Source: Clostridiales bacterium (GTDB lineage Bacteria > Bacillota > Clostridia > Oscillospirales > Acutalibacteraceae). Taken from it: a stretch of DNA of 24,000 nucleotides. Below the pieces are notes generated by a model. It was not told the origin of the DNA and made no database searches. It worked only from the letters and a program-made list of their open reading frames with translations. The stretch covers positions 30,957-54,956 of the forward strand of contig DAIOKN010000013.1 in the NCBI GenBank assembly GCA_036756705.1, given 5' to 3'. Below are positions 22,331-24,000 of this stretch, one piece after another. The position numbers and the translations under genes are program-made. The first letter of the stretch is position 1. Every line of letters starts with the position of its first letter.

Positions 22331-23110
22331 TTATTCCATAGGATTTTTCAGCTTGTTTTTGGGGGAGAGATATCCGCATTTCCGTGAAATATCGCGGGTC
22401 GCCTGAAGAATGGTCTTTACGACCAGTTCCCGTTTCTGAGTCATTCTTTCTCTGGGGCCGGAAACACTGACGGCGGCGATCACTTTGCTGTTAGCATCAT
22501 AGATCGGTGCAGCAGCGCACCACAGGCCTTCTTCAATTTCACCGTCGTCCACCGCATATCCCTGCCGTTTAAATTTCTCCATTTGCCGGTACAAATCCTC
22601 TTTTGAACGGACGGTATTGTCGGTAATTGGCTGAAACTGCAGTCCGGCAATCATGGCTTGACTTCGGTTTGGTTCCATAAAAGTCAAAAATGCTTTGCCC
22701 AGTCCGGTACAGTAAATAGGTTTCCGGCTGCCGATGCTGGCGTTTGTAGAAACGGTCTTTTCACTGTTAATCTTGGCCACATACACAACCTCATCGCCGG
22801 AAAGGACTGCCATAAATACTGTTTCGCTGACGATGTCCATCACCCATTGAAGCATGGGTGCGGCGATGCGGTTGATGTCGAGAAAAGCCGCGGCATTCAT
22901 GCCCAGACGAATCAGTCTGGGCCCCAGGGCATAGCATTTGTTTGTGTCTACCAGAAGATATTCGTTCTCACTAAGCGTTTGAAGGATTTCAAAAGTGCTG
23001 CTTCTGGCGTATCCTAATTGTTCGCCGACCTGTTTTGCCGTGAGTCCGCGCGGAAAATTTGAAAGAAGCTCAAAGATCCGCAGAACCCTTTCCGCTGATT
23101 TTACAGACAT
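22331..23110 (-). CDS. IclR-family transcriptional regulator
   Basis: N-terminal wHTH SVKSAERVLRIFELLSNFPRGLTAKQVGEQLGYARSSTFEILQTL plus a C-terminal IclR effector domain (GLGKAFL..., VSVSGP). Start set to ATG 23110 (GGAGGA 7 nt upstream) rather than the track's TTG at 23125. Confidence 0.9.
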   Translation of the reverse strand: MSVKSAERVLRIFELLSNFPRGLTAKQVGEQLGYARSSTFEILQTLSENEYLLVDTNKCYALGPRLIRLGMNAAAFLDINRIAAPMLQWVMDIVSETVFMAVLSGDEVVYVAKINSEKTVSTNASIGSRKPIYCTGLGKAFLTFMEPNRSQAMIAGLQFQPITDNTVRSKEDLYRQMEKFKRQGYAVDDGEIEEGLWCAAAPIYDANSKVIAAVSVSGPRERMTQKRELVVKTILQATRDISRKCGYLSPKNKLKNPME

Positions 23111-23131
23111 GAAATAATCCTCCAATTTAAC

Positions 23132-23149
23132 GGTTCACATATATGAACC
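23132..23149. promoter_or_regulatory. Imperfect palindrome GGTTCAcATATaTGAACC upstream of iclR; candidate autoregulatory operator
   Basis: The 6-bp outer arms GGTTCA/TGAACC are perfect and 16 of 18 positions are symmetric. Located 22-39 nt upstream of the iclR ATG, downstream of the candidate promoter. Confidence 0.35.
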
Positions 23150-23178
23150 TAATTCTCATACTTGTCAAAATTTATTCT

Positions 23179-23206
23179 ATTATAAATGACATTTTTCTAA
23201 AGTCAA
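23179..23206 (-). promoter_or_regulatory. Candidate promoter of the iclR operon: TTGACT-16 nt-TATAAT (minus strand)
   Basis: -35 is the revcomp of AGTCAA 23201-23206 and -10 is the revcomp of ATTATA 23179-23184, with a 16-nt spacer. Confidence 0.45.
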
Positions 23207-23350
23207 GCTTTTCCTACTACTTTTTCCTTAATGCACAAATTAGATCACACCCAAATTATTCATAAAGACTTCGACTGAAAGCGAAGAGGGTGCGGCGCAA
23301 TATCCCGGTGTAGGCCGGCATATCCATGAAAAATAGCATAGACAAAACGA

Positions 23351-23393
23351 GGGCGTACCGGATTGATTTCCGGGACGCCCTTCATTTTATTTA
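23351..23393. terminator. Orphan GC-rich hairpin with U-rich tracts on both strands (bidirectional terminator or insulator)
   Basis: GGGCGTACCGG (8-nt loop) CCGGGACGCCC: 10 bp plus one mismatch. The plus strand continues TTCATTTTATTT and the minus strand continues TCGTTTTGTCT. No CDS ends next to it. Confidence 0.5.
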
Positions 23394-23430
23394 TTATATG
23401 GTTCTGCTAAAGCGTTTTTTATTTTTCATC

Positions 23431-23459
23431 TTGAAATTTTACCAAATTATGGTTATAAT
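23431..23459 (+). promoter_or_regulatory. Near-consensus promoter TTGAAA-17 nt-TATAAT for the small hydrophobic-peptide transcript
   Basis: -35 at 23431-23436, a 17-nt spacer and -10 at 23454-23459, read directly. Confidence 0.55.
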
Positions 23460-23541
23460 ACTTTTGCAAAGGGCCTCGGGCGGTTCTTCCATTTCTAGGC
23501 AAAGGCTTTGGCACATAACCCAAGAAATGGAGGTGAGAAGC

Positions 23542-23619
23542 ATGGAAATGCTCTATGCTGCCTTGCTCCTTGTTGCAGCTACGGGCTACATACTCGTGCT
23601 CAGCAAGGCAAACAAATAA
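23542..23619 (+). CDS. 25-aa hydrophobic peptide MEMLYAALLLVAATGYILVLSKANK (candidate type I toxin or small membrane protein)
   Basis: GGAGGTGA RBS at 23529-23536. A single TM-like segment is followed by a Lys-rich tail. The 5'-UTR segment CTTCCATTTCT (23486-23496) is complementary to AGAAATGGAGG (23523-33), which covers the SD. Confidence 0.45.
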   Translation: MEMLYAALLLVAATGYILVLSKANK

Positions 23620-23695
23620 CCGCCCCCAGCCAAAGGAAAGCGGTTATCGTGAGTACATTGGACCGTCCACTTCGGTGGAGGGCCCTTTGCATTTC
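23605..23695 (-). ncRNA. Candidate cis-antisense RNA (antitoxin) overlapping the 3' end and 3' UTR of the small-peptide mRNA
   Basis: Bounded by the minus-strand promoter at 23702-23730 and a minus-strand hairpin ATAACCGC...GCGGTTAT (23616-23647), followed by TTGTTTGCCTTG. Contains the CCAC-(4 nt)-GTGG stem (23667-23678). The ends are estimates. Confidence 0.35.
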
Positions 23696-23701
23696 TATGA
23701 T

Positions 23702-23730
23702 ATTGTATGCAGCCAATTTCCATTTGTCAA
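23702..23730 (-). promoter_or_regulatory. Near-consensus convergent promoter TTGACA-17 nt-TACAAT on the minus strand
   Basis: -35 is the revcomp of TGTCAA 23725-23730 and -10 is the revcomp of ATTGTA 23702-23707, with exactly 17 nt between. It points into the 3' UTR of the 23542 ORF. Confidence 0.5.
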
Positions 23731-23745
23731 GAAATTTTTTCTTTG

Positions 23746-23780
23746 ATCGTTGGTAATAAACCGACGATTTTCTTTATTAT
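23746..23780 (+). terminator. Rho-independent terminator of the small-peptide transcript
   Basis: ATCGTTGG TAATAAA CCGACGAT (8-bp stem including one G-U) followed by TTTCTTTATTAT. Confidence 0.5.
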
Positions 23781-23865
23781 CTGAATGGACTATTCATGTT
23801 TTTTATATGTTCCTATTAAAATACTGCCTTATTATACGGTGAATATTTTTGGAGGTATAAGAGAA

Positions 23866-24000
23866 ATGGACGAAGATTTAAAGCAGCAACTCGAGTGGTT
23901 AAACGCCAACCTGAACACTGTTGCACAAAACCAGGCGATGCTGTACGCGGAACTGAAAGAGATCGAGGGGAGGCTGCCAGAGCAGGAAGCGGAAGGGTAA
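23866..24000 (+). CDS. Small (44 aa) acidic, probably coiled-coil hypothetical protein
   Basis: GGAGG at 23851-23855, 10 nt upstream of ATG 23866. The product is MDEDLKQQLEWLNANLNTVAQNQAMLYAELKEIEGRLPEQEAEG, with the stop at the window end. I recognise no family. The track start 23785 lacks an RBS. Confidence 0.45.
   Translation: MDEDLKQQLEWLNANLNTVAQNQAMLYAELKEIEGRLPEQEAEG

What the first reader, a model, noticed from the sequence alone, without database searches (positions are those of the whole stretch)
23431..23780. Candidate type I toxin-antitoxin module: 25-aa hydrophobic peptide, SD-sequestering 5' UTR and convergent antisense promoter
Seen directly:
- A near-consensus promoter TTGAAA-17-TATAAT (23431-23459).
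- A ~75-nt 5' UTR in which CTTCCATTTCT (23486-23496) can pair with AGAAATGGAGG (23523-23533), which is the Shine-Dalgarno region (11 bp, one G-U).
- The ORF MEMLYAALLLVAATGYILVLSKANK (23542-23619), one TM-like helix with a Lys-rich tail.
- A ~150-nt 3' UTR ending in a terminator (23746-23780).
- Inside that 3' UTR, on the opposite strand, a near-consensus promoter TTGACA-17-TACAAT (23730-23702).
- The transcript from that promoter would run back across the ORF stop codon to a hairpin plus U-rich tract (23647-23605).
Established knowledge: convergent 3'-overlapping toxin mRNA and antitoxin sRNA, a buried SD and a short hydrophobic peptide with a basic tail describe Gram-positive type I systems such as txpA/RatA and bsrG/SR4. 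I do not recognise the peptide as a member of a named toxin family. The locus sits in an AT-richer, otherwise non-coding tail bordered by an orphan bidirectional terminator.
Basis: partly seen in the sequence, partly recalled or inferred. Interest (0 to 1): 0.75.

Follow-up and report, generated by a model that had tools for sequence, protein, structure and literature searches.

The report
New prophage-linked type I toxin-antitoxin cassette
A roughly 440-base self-contained cassette encodes a 25-residue membrane peptide and a convergent antisense RNA; it recurs in prophages and at chromosomal breakpoints of fermentation Clostridia and has the anatomy of an RNA-controlled (type I) toxin-antitoxin pair from a family not yet named.

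Summary
I found the same module in 15 other loci, giving 11 distinct close sequences plus one distant homologue. Four of these lie on viral contigs, and the window-type copies have three different left flanks and two different right flanks. The ORF is always 24-26 codons. Variable columns by codon position are 9/4/16, and all replacements are conservative. Both promoters keep their hexamers while the spacers drift: the antisense TTGACA/TACAAT is invariant in the 11 close modules. The mRNA fold is supported by covariation (96% of cells paired against 34-43% in slid controls; 10 compensatory pairs). The conserved sense terminator is the hairpin at 23660-23685, so the mRNA is probably about 230 nt and the antisense RNA about 90 nt, fully complementary to its 3' end. 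Outward-facing terminators insulate the cassette. The peptide matches no Pfam, NCBIfam, PHROGs, PDB or Rfam entry. Best reading: a new family within the known type I toxin-antitoxin class. Toxicity and transcription remain untested.

The parts
23351..23390 (.). Bidirectional terminator hairpin (GGGCGTACCGG...CCGGGACGCCC) with an A-run on the left and a T-run on the right. It acts as an outward-facing backstop for antisense-direction transcription and as the left insulator of the cassette.
   Evidence: Read directly in the sequence; the hairpin also appears in the alignments. It is retained together with the module in L026 and L027, whose further-left flanks differ, and the two changes there (23358C>T, 23374G>T) keep or improve the pairing. 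Analogous antisense-direction terminators lie upstream of the sense promoter in L012, L019 and L014.
23431..23459 (+). Sense (toxin mRNA) promoter, TTGAAA-17-TATAAT. The predicted +1 is G23466.
   Evidence: The -10 TATAAT is invariant in 11 distinct modules. The -35 is TTGAAA, TTGCAA or TTGATA, with 16-17 nt spacing, across 6 distinct spacers averaging 47% identity. The distant homologue L014 has a perfect TTGACA-17-TATAAT.
23466..23484 (+). 5' strand of the long-distance 5'-3' clamp. 23466-23476 pairs with 23680-23690, and 23480-23484 pairs with 23662-23666.
   Evidence: The MFE of the full transcript has z = -5.3. In the RNAalifold consensus, helix 1 is 100% paired in 9 of 9 sequences, with one pair changed on both sides and wobble changes elsewhere. 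An equivalent clamp built from different nucleotides is predicted in L014, z = -6.5.
23486..23533 (+). Anti-SD hairpin: CUUCCAUUUCU (23486-23496) pairs with AGAAAUGGAGG (23523-23533), which contains the SD GGAGG at 23529-23533.
   Evidence: Three pairs show compensatory changes across homologues (UA<->CG, CG<->UA), and the helix is 95.7% paired. The SD stays paired in every 3' or 5' truncation folded.
23539..23559 (+). Small hairpin that encloses the start codon (AGCAUGGA / UCUAUGCU).
   Evidence: It is invariant, so it says nothing either way about structure. P(unpaired) of the AUG is about 0 once the ORF has been transcribed.
23542..23619 (+). ORF of 25 codons, MEMLYAALLLVAATGYILVLSKANK: one TM-length hydrophobic core, an acidic N-terminus and a basic C-terminal tail. 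This is the candidate toxin.
   Evidence: Eight distinct peptides of 24-26 aa were found among the homologues. Variable columns by codon position are 9/4/16, all replacements are conservative, the one indel is a whole codon, and start and stop are conserved. Y5, A13-T14-G15-Y16-I17 and V19 are invariant.
23605..23648 (-). Intrinsic terminator of the antisense RNA: hairpin 1 (23617-23646) plus the U-tract UUAUUUGUUUGCC. It overlaps the last four sense codons and the stop codon of the ORF.
   Evidence: It is also called on the antisense strand in L012 and L019. The stem is invariant while the loop varies between variants.
23660..23697 (+). Hairpin 2, with a cUUCGg tip, followed by UUUGCAUUUCU. 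It is the probable sense-mRNA terminator. Its 3' half is also the 3' strand of the 5'-3' clamp, and on the other strand it forms the 5' hairpin of the antisense RNA.
   Evidence: The homologous hairpin is called as a sense-strand terminator (11 pairs) in L012, L011 and L019. The tip shows two compensatory pairs: CCAC/GUGG, CUAC/GUAG and CUGC/GCAG. The antisense fold has z = -3.1.
23605..23695 (-). Predicted antisense (antitoxin) RNA of about 90 nt, with +1 near 23695. It begins GAAAUGCAAAGGGCC, so it repeats the first 10 nt of the mRNA (GCAAAGGGCC).
   Evidence: The ends are inferred from the promoter and terminator positions. It folds into two hairpins. Its complementarity to the mRNA 3' end follows by construction.
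23702..23730 (-). Antisense promoter, TTGACA-17-TACAAT.
   Evidence: Both hexamers are invariant in 11 distinct modules, across 7 distinct spacers averaging 59% identity, with 17-18 nt spacing. L014 has TTGACA-17-TAATAT with an extended TG. Sequence conservation of the module ends exactly at this -35.
23745..23780 (+). Outer sense-strand terminator: the right insulator and a backstop for read-through.
   Evidence: It is shared with L026 and L027 and partly with L018. An analogous element exists in L014. It is absent from L001 and from the phage copies L011, L012 and L019.

Best explanation
This is a self-contained type I toxin-antitoxin cassette of a family that has not been named.

Predicted parts:
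- A strong sigma-A-type promoter makes an mRNA of about 230 nt (23466 to about 23695) that encodes a 25-residue single-helix membrane peptide.
- The mRNA is built to be translationally silent and stable. A local hairpin pairs the Shine-Dalgarno sequence with an upstream anti-SD as soon as it is transcribed. The start codon sits in a second hairpin. The first 19 nt of the mRNA pair with its last 30 nt or so, forming a 5'-3' clamp.
- A convergent promoter, 29 nt long and placed just beyond the mRNA end, makes an antisense RNA of about 90 nt. It is fully complementary to the mRNA 3' end, from the last four codons through the clamp strand.

Inferred mechanism: the antisense RNA starts with the same 10 nt as the mRNA, so it competes with the mRNA 5' end for the mRNA 3' end. 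Pairing would open the clamp and create a duplex of about 90 bp. That duplex would be cut by RNase III, and the exposed ends would be attacked by exonucleases, so the toxin mRNA is destroyed, as described for txpA/RatA and bsrG/SR4. When the unstable antisense RNA is no longer supplied (loss of the element, or stress), the stable clamped mRNA persists, is processed to free the SD, and the peptide inserts into the membrane and arrests or kills the cell.

Outward-facing terminators on both sides make the cassette transcriptionally autonomous. This fits its occurrence in prophages and at chromosomal rearrangement junctions.

Shown here: the elements, their conservation, the coding constraint, structural covariation and association with mobile elements. 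Inferred: the transcript ends, RNase III dependence, the activation step and toxicity.
For: 1. Elements at the stated coordinates.
2. Family. The module occurs in 15 other loci, giving 11 distinct close sequences at 66-99% identity, plus a distant homologue, L014, with the same layout.
3. Coding. The ORF is 24-26 codons in all copies. Variable columns by codon position are 9/4/16, replacements are conservative only, and the one indel is a whole codon.
4. Promoters. The antisense hexamers are invariant in the 11 close modules over 7 diverged spacers, and the sense -10 is invariant. Conservation begins at the sense -10/+1 and stops at the antisense -35.
5. Structure. There are 68 consensus pairs, 96.1% paired against 34-43% when the partners are slid. 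Ten pairs change on both sides, against 0-2 in the slid controls. No shuffle out of 500 reaches the observed covariation score. The full mRNA fold has z = -5.3, and the L014 fold has z = -6.5 with the same clamp built from a different sequence. The SD is paired in every truncation tested.
6. Terminators. Hairpin 2 is called as a sense terminator in three phage copies and hairpin 1 as an antisense terminator.
7. Context. The module lies next to integrases, tail, lysis or replication genes on viral contigs. The window-type copy is flanked by three different left contexts and two different right contexts, with mosaic crossovers inside the module.
8. Literature. SD/anti-SD pairing, terminator stem-loops and 5'-3' long-distance interactions are the stated key determinants of type I toxin mRNAs (PMC8594479). 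3'-overlapping convergent antisense RNAs that trigger RNase III decay, and location in prophages, are the Gram-positive pattern (PMC4147584, PMC5961336).
Against: - There are no expression data of any kind. Both transcription start sites and both 3' ends are predictions.
- Toxicity and antisense rescue are untested.
- The SD is sequestered in every conformer I folded, so no route to translation is evident from sequence alone.
- The covariation rests on about 9-11 related sequences that fall into 3-4 clades, so the number of independent compensatory events is small. The shuffle control does not correct for relatedness.
- In L014, hairpin 1 is followed by a U-tract on the sense strand as well. 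That could end the mRNA before the 3' clamp strand.
- The family is rare. One class-pattern scan of 185,579 species genomes hit only one, although that pattern is strict.
- The peptide matches no known toxin model.
Confidence: 0.68

Rival explanations
1. The sense/antisense gene pair is real and antisense-regulated, but its peptide is a non-toxic small membrane protein. It could be, for example, a prophage 'moron' that modulates a host membrane protein, excludes superinfection or tunes lysis. In that case it would not be an addiction or toxin module.
For: The coding constraint, promoters and structure show that the peptide is made and regulated. They do not show that it is toxic. The phage copies sit in accessory positions, next to an integrase or between tail and lysis genes, where morons of many functions are found. 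No known toxin family is matched.
Against: The multi-layer silencing is hard to rationalise for a harmless peptide: a buried SD, a hairpinned AUG, a 5'-3' clamp, a near-consensus antisense promoter and insulating terminators. This combination is the recognised signature of type I toxin mRNAs (PMC8594479). The peptide has the canonical size and charge layout of type I toxins (PMC5961336). The chromosomal copies persist outside any prophage.
Confidence: 0.22
2. The locus is a pair of non-coding regulatory RNAs (a structured sRNA and its antisense), and the 25-codon ORF is incidental.
For: Nucleotide-level conservation is very high in the 3' half of the ORF: ACGGGNTACATA is invariant even in L014. 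Both RNAs are strongly structured.
Against: The third-position excess (9/4/16 variable columns), conservative-only replacements, a whole-codon indel, conserved ATG and TAA, constant 24-26 codon length and a conserved GGAGG at the correct spacing in all copies are not expected for a non-coding RNA.
Confidence: 0.04
3. The region is a cis-acting leader or attenuator, or terminator clutter, belonging to the neighbouring genes (the IclR regulator or the downstream 44-codon ORF).
For: It lies in an intergenic, AT-richer stretch between two genes and is rich in hairpins.
Against: The same module occurs with unrelated neighbours on both sides. L001 has a different right flank. L026, L027 and L018 have different left flanks. 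L011, L012, L019 and L014 lie in phage genomes. The module is bracketed by outward-facing terminators. No Rfam cis-regulatory family matches.
Confidence: 0.02

Closest known systems
txpA/RatA, bsrG/SR4 and bsrE/SR5 of Bacillus subtilis (type I TA systems on the skin, SPbeta and P6 elements)
   Same: Convergent toxin mRNA and antisense RNA that overlap at their 3' ends (75-120 nt there, about 90 nt here). The SD is partly or fully buried in a stem of the toxin mRNA. The product is a small single-TM peptide with a basic tail. The systems are prophage-located. The expected mode of action is duplex-triggered decay by RNase III (PMC4147584).
   Different: There is no sequence similarity in either peptide or RNA. 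The peptide here is much shorter: 24-26 aa, against 59 aa for TxpA (PMC4147584) and roughly 30-40 aa for BsrG and BsrE (from memory). The mRNA has an explicit 5'-3' end clamp whose 3' strand lies inside the antisense target. The host is a Clostridia (Oscillospiraceae) lineage, not Bacilli.
hok/Sok (plasmid R1) and aapA1/IsoA1 (Helicobacter pylori)
   Same: The full-length toxin mRNA is held inactive and stable by a long-distance interaction between its 5' and 3' ends together with SD sequestration (PMC5416894, PMC6733600, PMC8594479).
   Different: In those systems the antisense RNA targets the 5' region, and activation is by 3' trimming. Here the antisense RNA overlaps the 3' end and would itself compete with the clamp. 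There is no sequence relationship: no Pfam HOK_GEF or other hit. Those are Gram-negative systems.
Clostridioides difficile type I TA modules (CD2517.1/RCd8, CD2907.1/RCd9, CD0956.2/RCd10)
   Same: The same bacterial class (Clostridia). Convergent overlapping transcripts. The RBS is buried in a double-stranded region. Prophage location and a basic C-terminal tail (PMC5961336).
   Different: The C. difficile toxins are 50-53 aa and are associated with CRISPR arrays. The peptides here are 24-26 aa, and I saw no CRISPR array near the module in the window or the fetched loci (I did not search systematically).
par (Fst/RNA II) of Enterococcus faecalis pAD1 and the Fst/Ldr superfamily
   Same: A Gram-positive type I system with convergent RNAs that share a terminator region. 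The peptide is a short single-TM helix with a charged C-terminus. The 5' end of the toxin RNA is sequestered in a helix that stabilises it (from memory: the 'upstream helix' of RNA I).
   Different: None of the 7 peptides hits the Pfam or NCBIfam Fst or Ldr models. In par the interaction also uses 5' direct repeats, and none are seen here.

Membership tests
Type I toxin-antitoxin systems (class) | Toxin is a small (<60 aa) hydrophobic protein with one potential TM domain and charged residues at the C-terminus | tested here: met
   The peptide is 24-26 aa with a hydrophobic core from L4 to L20 and a basic tail (SKANK, GKAKK, AQQAKK or KKK) in all 8 variants. The definition is quoted from PMC5961336.
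Type I toxin-antitoxin systems (class) | An antisense RNA gene with its own promoter and terminator that base-pairs with the toxin mRNA | tested here: met
   In silico only. The near-consensus convergent promoter and intrinsic terminator are conserved in all copies. Because the RNA is cis-encoded, it has about 90 nt of perfect complementarity to the mRNA.
Type I toxin-antitoxin systems (class) | Toxin mRNA fold that sequesters the SD (anti-SD), with terminal stem-loops and/or a 5'-3' long-distance interaction | tested here: met
   The determinants are as listed in PMC8594479.
Type I toxin-antitoxin systems (class) | Both RNAs are actually transcribed; the antitoxin RNA is unstable relative to the toxin mRNA | not testable with these tools
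   No transcriptome data are available here.
Type I toxin-antitoxin systems (class) | Overexpression of the peptide is toxic, and the antisense RNA neutralises it | not testable with these tools
   This requires an experiment.
TxpA/BsrG-type toxins and the RatA/SR4 RNAs (B. subtilis) | Sequence homology of the toxin to TxpA/BsrG models, or of the RNAs to the Rfam families | tested here: not met
   The 7 peptides give no Pfam hit at E<=10 and no relevant NCBIfam hit. There is no Rfam hit at gathering score in the window, and only chance-level hits at E<=10 in 23100-24000.
TxpA/BsrG-type toxins and the RatA/SR4 RNAs (B. subtilis) | Convergent 3'-overlap gene layout and location on prophage-like elements | tested here: met
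   For the layout. Four homologues lie on IMG/VR viral contigs beside integrase, tail, endolysin or other phage-type genes.
Fst/Ldr, Hok, TisB, Ibs and other Pfam-modelled type I toxin families | A match to the family HMM | tested here: not met
   There are zero Pfam families for any of the six close peptides at E<=10. The PDB sequence search gave only a chance 8-residue match to PetM, E = 0.65.
Clostridioides difficile CD toxins / RCd antitoxins | Sequence homology to the 50-53 aa CD toxins | not tested
The length difference (24-26 against 50-53 aa, PMC5961336) argues against membership.

The most novel reading that the evidence does not exclude
The cassette is a previously unrecognised type I toxin family with the shortest toxin known in Gram-positive bacteria (24-26 aa) and a control logic not described before. 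The antitoxin RNA begins with the same 10 nt as the toxin mRNA. It therefore acts by displacing the mRNA's own 5' end from a 5'-3' clamp, converting a nuclease-protected closed mRNA into an open one with a long duplex. The unit is also a portable, terminator-insulated block of about 440 nt. It moves between prophages and chromosomal sites and serves as a recombination junction, as shown by the mosaic alleles in L001 and L002.
Probability: 0.3. Interest if true: 0.6.

Novelty: new member of a known kind. Interest (0 to 1): 0.5.

Why it matters
[quoted passage not shown] Here every pipeline called a spurious 97-codon ORF instead. The toxins also share no sequence between families. In Clostridia the only characterised examples I know of are those of C. 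difficile.

This locus gives a well-delimited, comparatively validated new family from uncultured fermentation Oscillospiraceae and their phages. It comes with a ready-made alignment and a set of covarying helices. It combines, in one small module, the 3'-overlap design typical of Gram-positive systems with the 5'-3' clamp known from hok and aapA1.

If toxicity is confirmed, it offers three things:
- a very small membrane-active peptide;
- a compact counter-selection or stabilisation cassette for Clostridia;
- a test case for how an antisense RNA can act by competing with an intramolecular clamp.

Tried and rejected
1. Protein-database routes were closed. The search for homologous proteins and the search for related loci refuse a 25-aa query, and the exact peptide is not in the 15-billion-protein collection.
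2. blastn of the module against the plasmid and phage GenBank collections gave no match.
3. An N-terminal back-translated pattern (MEMLYAALL) on viral contigs gave nothing.
4. A C-terminal pattern (ATGYILVL) gave 10 hits. Three of them (L011, L012, L014) proved real. The other seven are chance matches inside unrelated frames.
5. Full-text search for six peptide substrings found no paper.
6. The alternative pairing GGGCGGUU (23478-85) with AACCGCCC (23620-27) appears in the single-sequence MFE. I set it aside because homologues create uncompensated mismatches there, and the alignment consensus instead pairs 23480-84 with 23662-66.
7. I looked for a partner gene. An RHH-like phrog_13890 gene lies upstream of the module in L012 and L019 only. 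It is not present in the other contexts, so it is synteny and not part of the module.
8. I looked for second copies within the window and the fetched loci with blastn and nhmmer. Apart from L014, there is one copy per locus.
9. The 17-nt direct repeat flanking the module (23384-23400 and 23767-23783, 2 mismatches) is AT-rich terminator tail with E of about 1. I do not treat it as a target-site duplication.
Full report
**1. The observation**

- Sense promoter TTGAAA-17-TATAAT at 23431-23459 (+).
- The 25-codon ORF at 23542-23619 (MEMLYAALLLVAATGYILVLSKANK), preceded by GGAGG at 23529-23533.
- Antisense promoter TTGACA-17-TACAAT at 23730-23702 (-).
- A minus-strand terminator at 23648-23615 with a T-rich tail.
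- A plus-strand terminator at 23745-23769.
- An imperfect bidirectional hairpin at 23351-23380.

In this one window the number of promoter-like and terminator-like sites is only slightly above the shuffles (6 against 3.2, and 4 against 2.1). The single sequence therefore cannot settle whether the arrangement is meaningful. Rfam gives nothing at gathering thresholds and only chance-level hits at E<=10. Pfam and NCBIfam give nothing for the peptide.

**2. Finding relatives**

The peptide is too short for the protein-search tools and is absent as an exact sequence from the protein collection. Gene callers had instead called a spurious 97-codon ORF that runs through the promoter into the real ORF.

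I used three routes to find relatives:
- Exact look-ups of the neighbouring genes.
- A class-level back-translated DNA pattern (T or C at second codon positions, with Y, G and K/R anchors).
- An RNA-level pattern joining three invariant blocks: TGCAAAGGG, GGAGGTGA and GGCCCTTTG.

These returned the following loci:
- The orthologous locus in a MAG and a fermentation metagenome (L001, L002).
- A MAG labelled Ruminococcaceae bacterium UBA5406 (L018; Clostridia, Oscillospiraceae).
- Three IMG/VR viral contigs (L011, L012, L019).
- Five metagenome contigs, four of them from fermentation metagenomes (L020-L024).
- Two further contigs reached through the downstream 44-codon gene (L026, L027).
- A distant homologue on a fourth viral contig, found by an nhmmer profile (L014).

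Together these are 15 other loci. They give 11 distinct close module sequences at 66-99% identity and 8 distinct peptides of 24-26 residues.

**3. The ORF is a real coding sequence**

- All copies keep the ATG, the TAA, the GGAGG and the codon count (25, 26 or 24).
- Across nine distinct sequences, the variable columns by codon position are 9, 4 and 16.
- Every replacement is conservative: E/D, M/L/I, L/I/F/V, A/V/T, S/G/A, K/R/Q and N/K.
- The only length change among the close copies is one whole codon.
- Y5, the A-T-G-Y-I block and V19 are invariant even in L014.
- The product is one TM-length hydrophobic helix with an acidic N-terminus and a basic C-terminal tail. That matches the textbook description of a type I toxin (PMC5961336).

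**4. Both promoters are under selection**

In the multiple alignment, conservation begins at the sense -10/+1 (TATAAT ... TGCAAAGGG) and ends exactly at the antisense -35 (TTGTCAAGA on the plus strand). The flanks beyond are unrelated between contexts.
- The antisense hexamers TTGACA and TACAAT are invariant in all 11 close modules. Their 17-18 nt spacer exists in 7 versions averaging 59% identity.
- The sense -10 is invariant and its -35 is TTGAAA, TTGCAA or TTGATA, over 6 spacers averaging 47% identity.
- L014 has diverged in most of its nucleotides, yet it has TTGACA-17-TATAAT for the sense RNA and TTGACA-17-TAATAT with an extended TG for the antisense RNA.

**5. RNA structure**

The predicted sense transcript folds far better than shuffles, z = -5.3. 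The RNAalifold consensus of nine sequences, re-counted independently, has 68 pairs:
- 96.1% of cells are paired, against 34-43% when the 3' partners are slid by 1-3 columns.
- Ten pairs change on both sides, against 0-2 in the slid controls.
- No shuffle out of 500 reaches the observed covariation score.

The helices are:
- **(i) A 5'-3' clamp.** 23466-23476 pairs with 23680-23690 (11 pairs, 100% paired, starting at the predicted +1). It is extended by 23480-23484 pairing with 23662-23666.
- **(ii) The anti-SD/SD hairpin.** 23486-23496 pairs with 23523-23533. It has three compensatory pairs, including a matched one-base shortening of both arms in the phage copies.
- **(iii) A hairpin over the start codon.** It is invariant and therefore uninformative.
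- **(iv) Hairpin 1.** 23617-23646, with an invariant stem and a variable loop.
- **(v) The tip of hairpin 2.** A cUUCGg loop, with two compensatory pairs.

L014 folds with z = -6.5 into the same plan. Its clamp starts at its predicted +1 but is made from different nucleotides. In the window sequence the SD and AUG are paired in the nascent, stop-codon-length, hairpin-1-length, full-length and 5'-trimmed forms.

The covariation evidence comes from a small number of clades. It is good but not overwhelming.

**6. Transcript ends**

In the three phage copies, hairpin 2 plus UUUGCUUUAU is called as an 11-pair intrinsic terminator on the sense strand. The window version has two mismatches and so escaped the scan, but it is homologous. 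The conserved sense 3' end is therefore at about 23692-23697, giving an mRNA of about 230 nt.

That outer terminator is shared with L026 and L027, partly with L018, and by analogy with L014. It is missing from L001 and the phage copies.

The two substitutions in the L026 copy of that hairpin restore or keep pairing. In L014 the two outer terminators overlap the two -35 boxes and are inverted copies of each other.

I read these as outward-facing insulators that make the cassette transcriptionally autonomous. This is an inference.

The antisense RNA, from about 23695 to about 23607, folds into two hairpins, z = -3.1. It is entirely complementary to the mRNA 3' end, including the last four codons. 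It starts with GAAAUGCAAAGGGCC, so it repeats the mRNA's first ten bases.

**7. Context**

Phage and element copies:
- On L012 the module lies between a tyrosine integrase and a small RHH-like gene, with a tail gene nearby.
- On L019 it lies between the homologous small gene and a serine-recombinase-type integrase.
- On L011/L023 it lies between a 171-codon gene and the tape-measure gene, with an endolysin a few kb away.
- On L018 it lies next to a DnaD-like replication gene.

The window copy is chromosomal and lies outside any prophage: an IclR regulator, a DHDPS-family gene and an ABC transporter lie to its left. It also sits at a synteny breakpoint.
- L001 shares 7.3 kb to the left at essentially 100%. 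It becomes divergent from 23666 and unrelated after 23743.
- L026 and L027 share the right flank but have a sigma-54 gene or a copper-amine-oxidase-like gene to the left. Their homology to the window starts at the left terminator.
- L002 differs from the window at only four positions in 7,670 bp. All four are inside the ORF (two synonymous, plus AAG>AGA for K>R) and all four are shared with L026. L002 is therefore a mosaic with a crossover at 23560-23562.

Either the module is a recombination substrate between alleles or copies, or short-read assemblers switched paths inside it. I cannot tell which.

**8. Mechanism**

The anatomy fits a type I toxin-antitoxin cassette. The mRNA is made silent co-transcriptionally by the anti-SD hairpin. 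It is closed by the 5'-3' clamp, which should protect both ends. The cis-antisense RNA pairs with the 3' 90 nt or so.

By analogy with txpA/RatA and bsrG/SR4 (PMC4147584), I infer that the duplex recruits RNase III and the mRNA is degraded. Because the antisense RNA carries the same 10-nt 5' sequence as the mRNA, it should also displace the mRNA's 5' end from the clamp and expose it.

The variable loop of hairpin 1, which differs between variants while its stem is invariant, is a plausible first-contact and specificity determinant.

How the SD is ever freed is not evident from the sequence. 5' processing, as in several known systems, is the likeliest route.

Transcription, RNA stability, toxicity and rescue are all untested.

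**9. Comparison with known systems and novelty**

- The layout is that of the Gram-positive 3'-overlap systems (PMC4147584, PMC5961336).
- The clamp is the feature known from hok and aapA1 (PMC5416894, PMC6733600). It is listed among the general determinants of type I toxin mRNAs (PMC8594479).
- Membership of any named family fails on sequence. None of the peptides gives a Pfam, NCBIfam or PHROGs hit. PDB gave only a chance match. Rfam gave nothing, and the peptide strings appear in no held paper.

I therefore classify it as a new family within a known class. The interest is moderate:
- The class is well known.
- This is a cleanly delimited and comparatively validated example from a lineage where such systems are essentially unexplored.
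- The peptide is unusually short.
- The antisense RNA and the clamp are coupled in an unusual way.

Noticed in passing
window 23326-23619 (+); L001 and L002 5492-5785: Automatic gene callers annotated a spurious 97-codon ORF. It starts inside the left terminator region, runs through the sense promoter and 5' UTR, and ends with the real 25-codon ORF. The real peptide is absent from the 15-billion-protein collection.
   Followed up: yes
window 23847-24000 (+): A 44-codon ORF (MDEDLKQQLEWLNANLNTVAQNQAMLYAELKEIEGRLPEQEAEG) with a good GGAGG SD. It is predicted to be helical or coiled-coil-like, has no significant family match (Pfam hits are all far below gathering score), and is conserved exactly on 4-5 contigs. 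It travels with the module's right flank in L002, L026 and L027.
   Followed up: partly
window 23666-23743 vs L001; window 23562-23607 vs L002 and L026: Strain differences are confined to the module and form mosaics. L001 switches to a diverged allele at about 23666 and to unrelated sequence at 23743. L002 carries an L026-type patch inside the ORF. The module lies at a synteny breakpoint with three different left flanks and two different right flanks. This could be real recombination or short-read assembly chimeras.
   Followed up: partly
L014 1427-1452 and 1080-1102: The two outward-facing terminators that bracket the distant homologue overlap the two -35 boxes. They are inverted repeats of each other (TGTCAACAG[C/T]GC...GCTGTTTTTTT), which gives the cassette terminal inverted repeats.
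   Followed up: partly
L010 7306-7395 (+): An unrelated viral contig, fetched through a chance pattern match, carries another SD-preceded 29-codon hydrophobic ORF with a basic tail (MKLITLVFPFIATILLVWIVMILLKRMKK). It is followed by a weak nhmmer match (E = 0.0016) to the ACGGGNTACATA block of the module. It may be another small-toxin locus or a remnant.
   Followed up: no
window 23133-23150: An inverted repeat, GGTTCA-N6-TGAACC, lies in the leader region just upstream of the IclR-family gene's start codon (the candidate promoter is at 23206-23179, minus strand). It is probably that regulator's own operator.
   Followed up: no
L012 3278-3754 and L019 156-503: A small RHH-like gene (phrog_13890; 48% identity over 54 aa between the two) lies immediately upstream of the module on two phage contigs. 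It is absent from all other contexts.
   Followed up: partly
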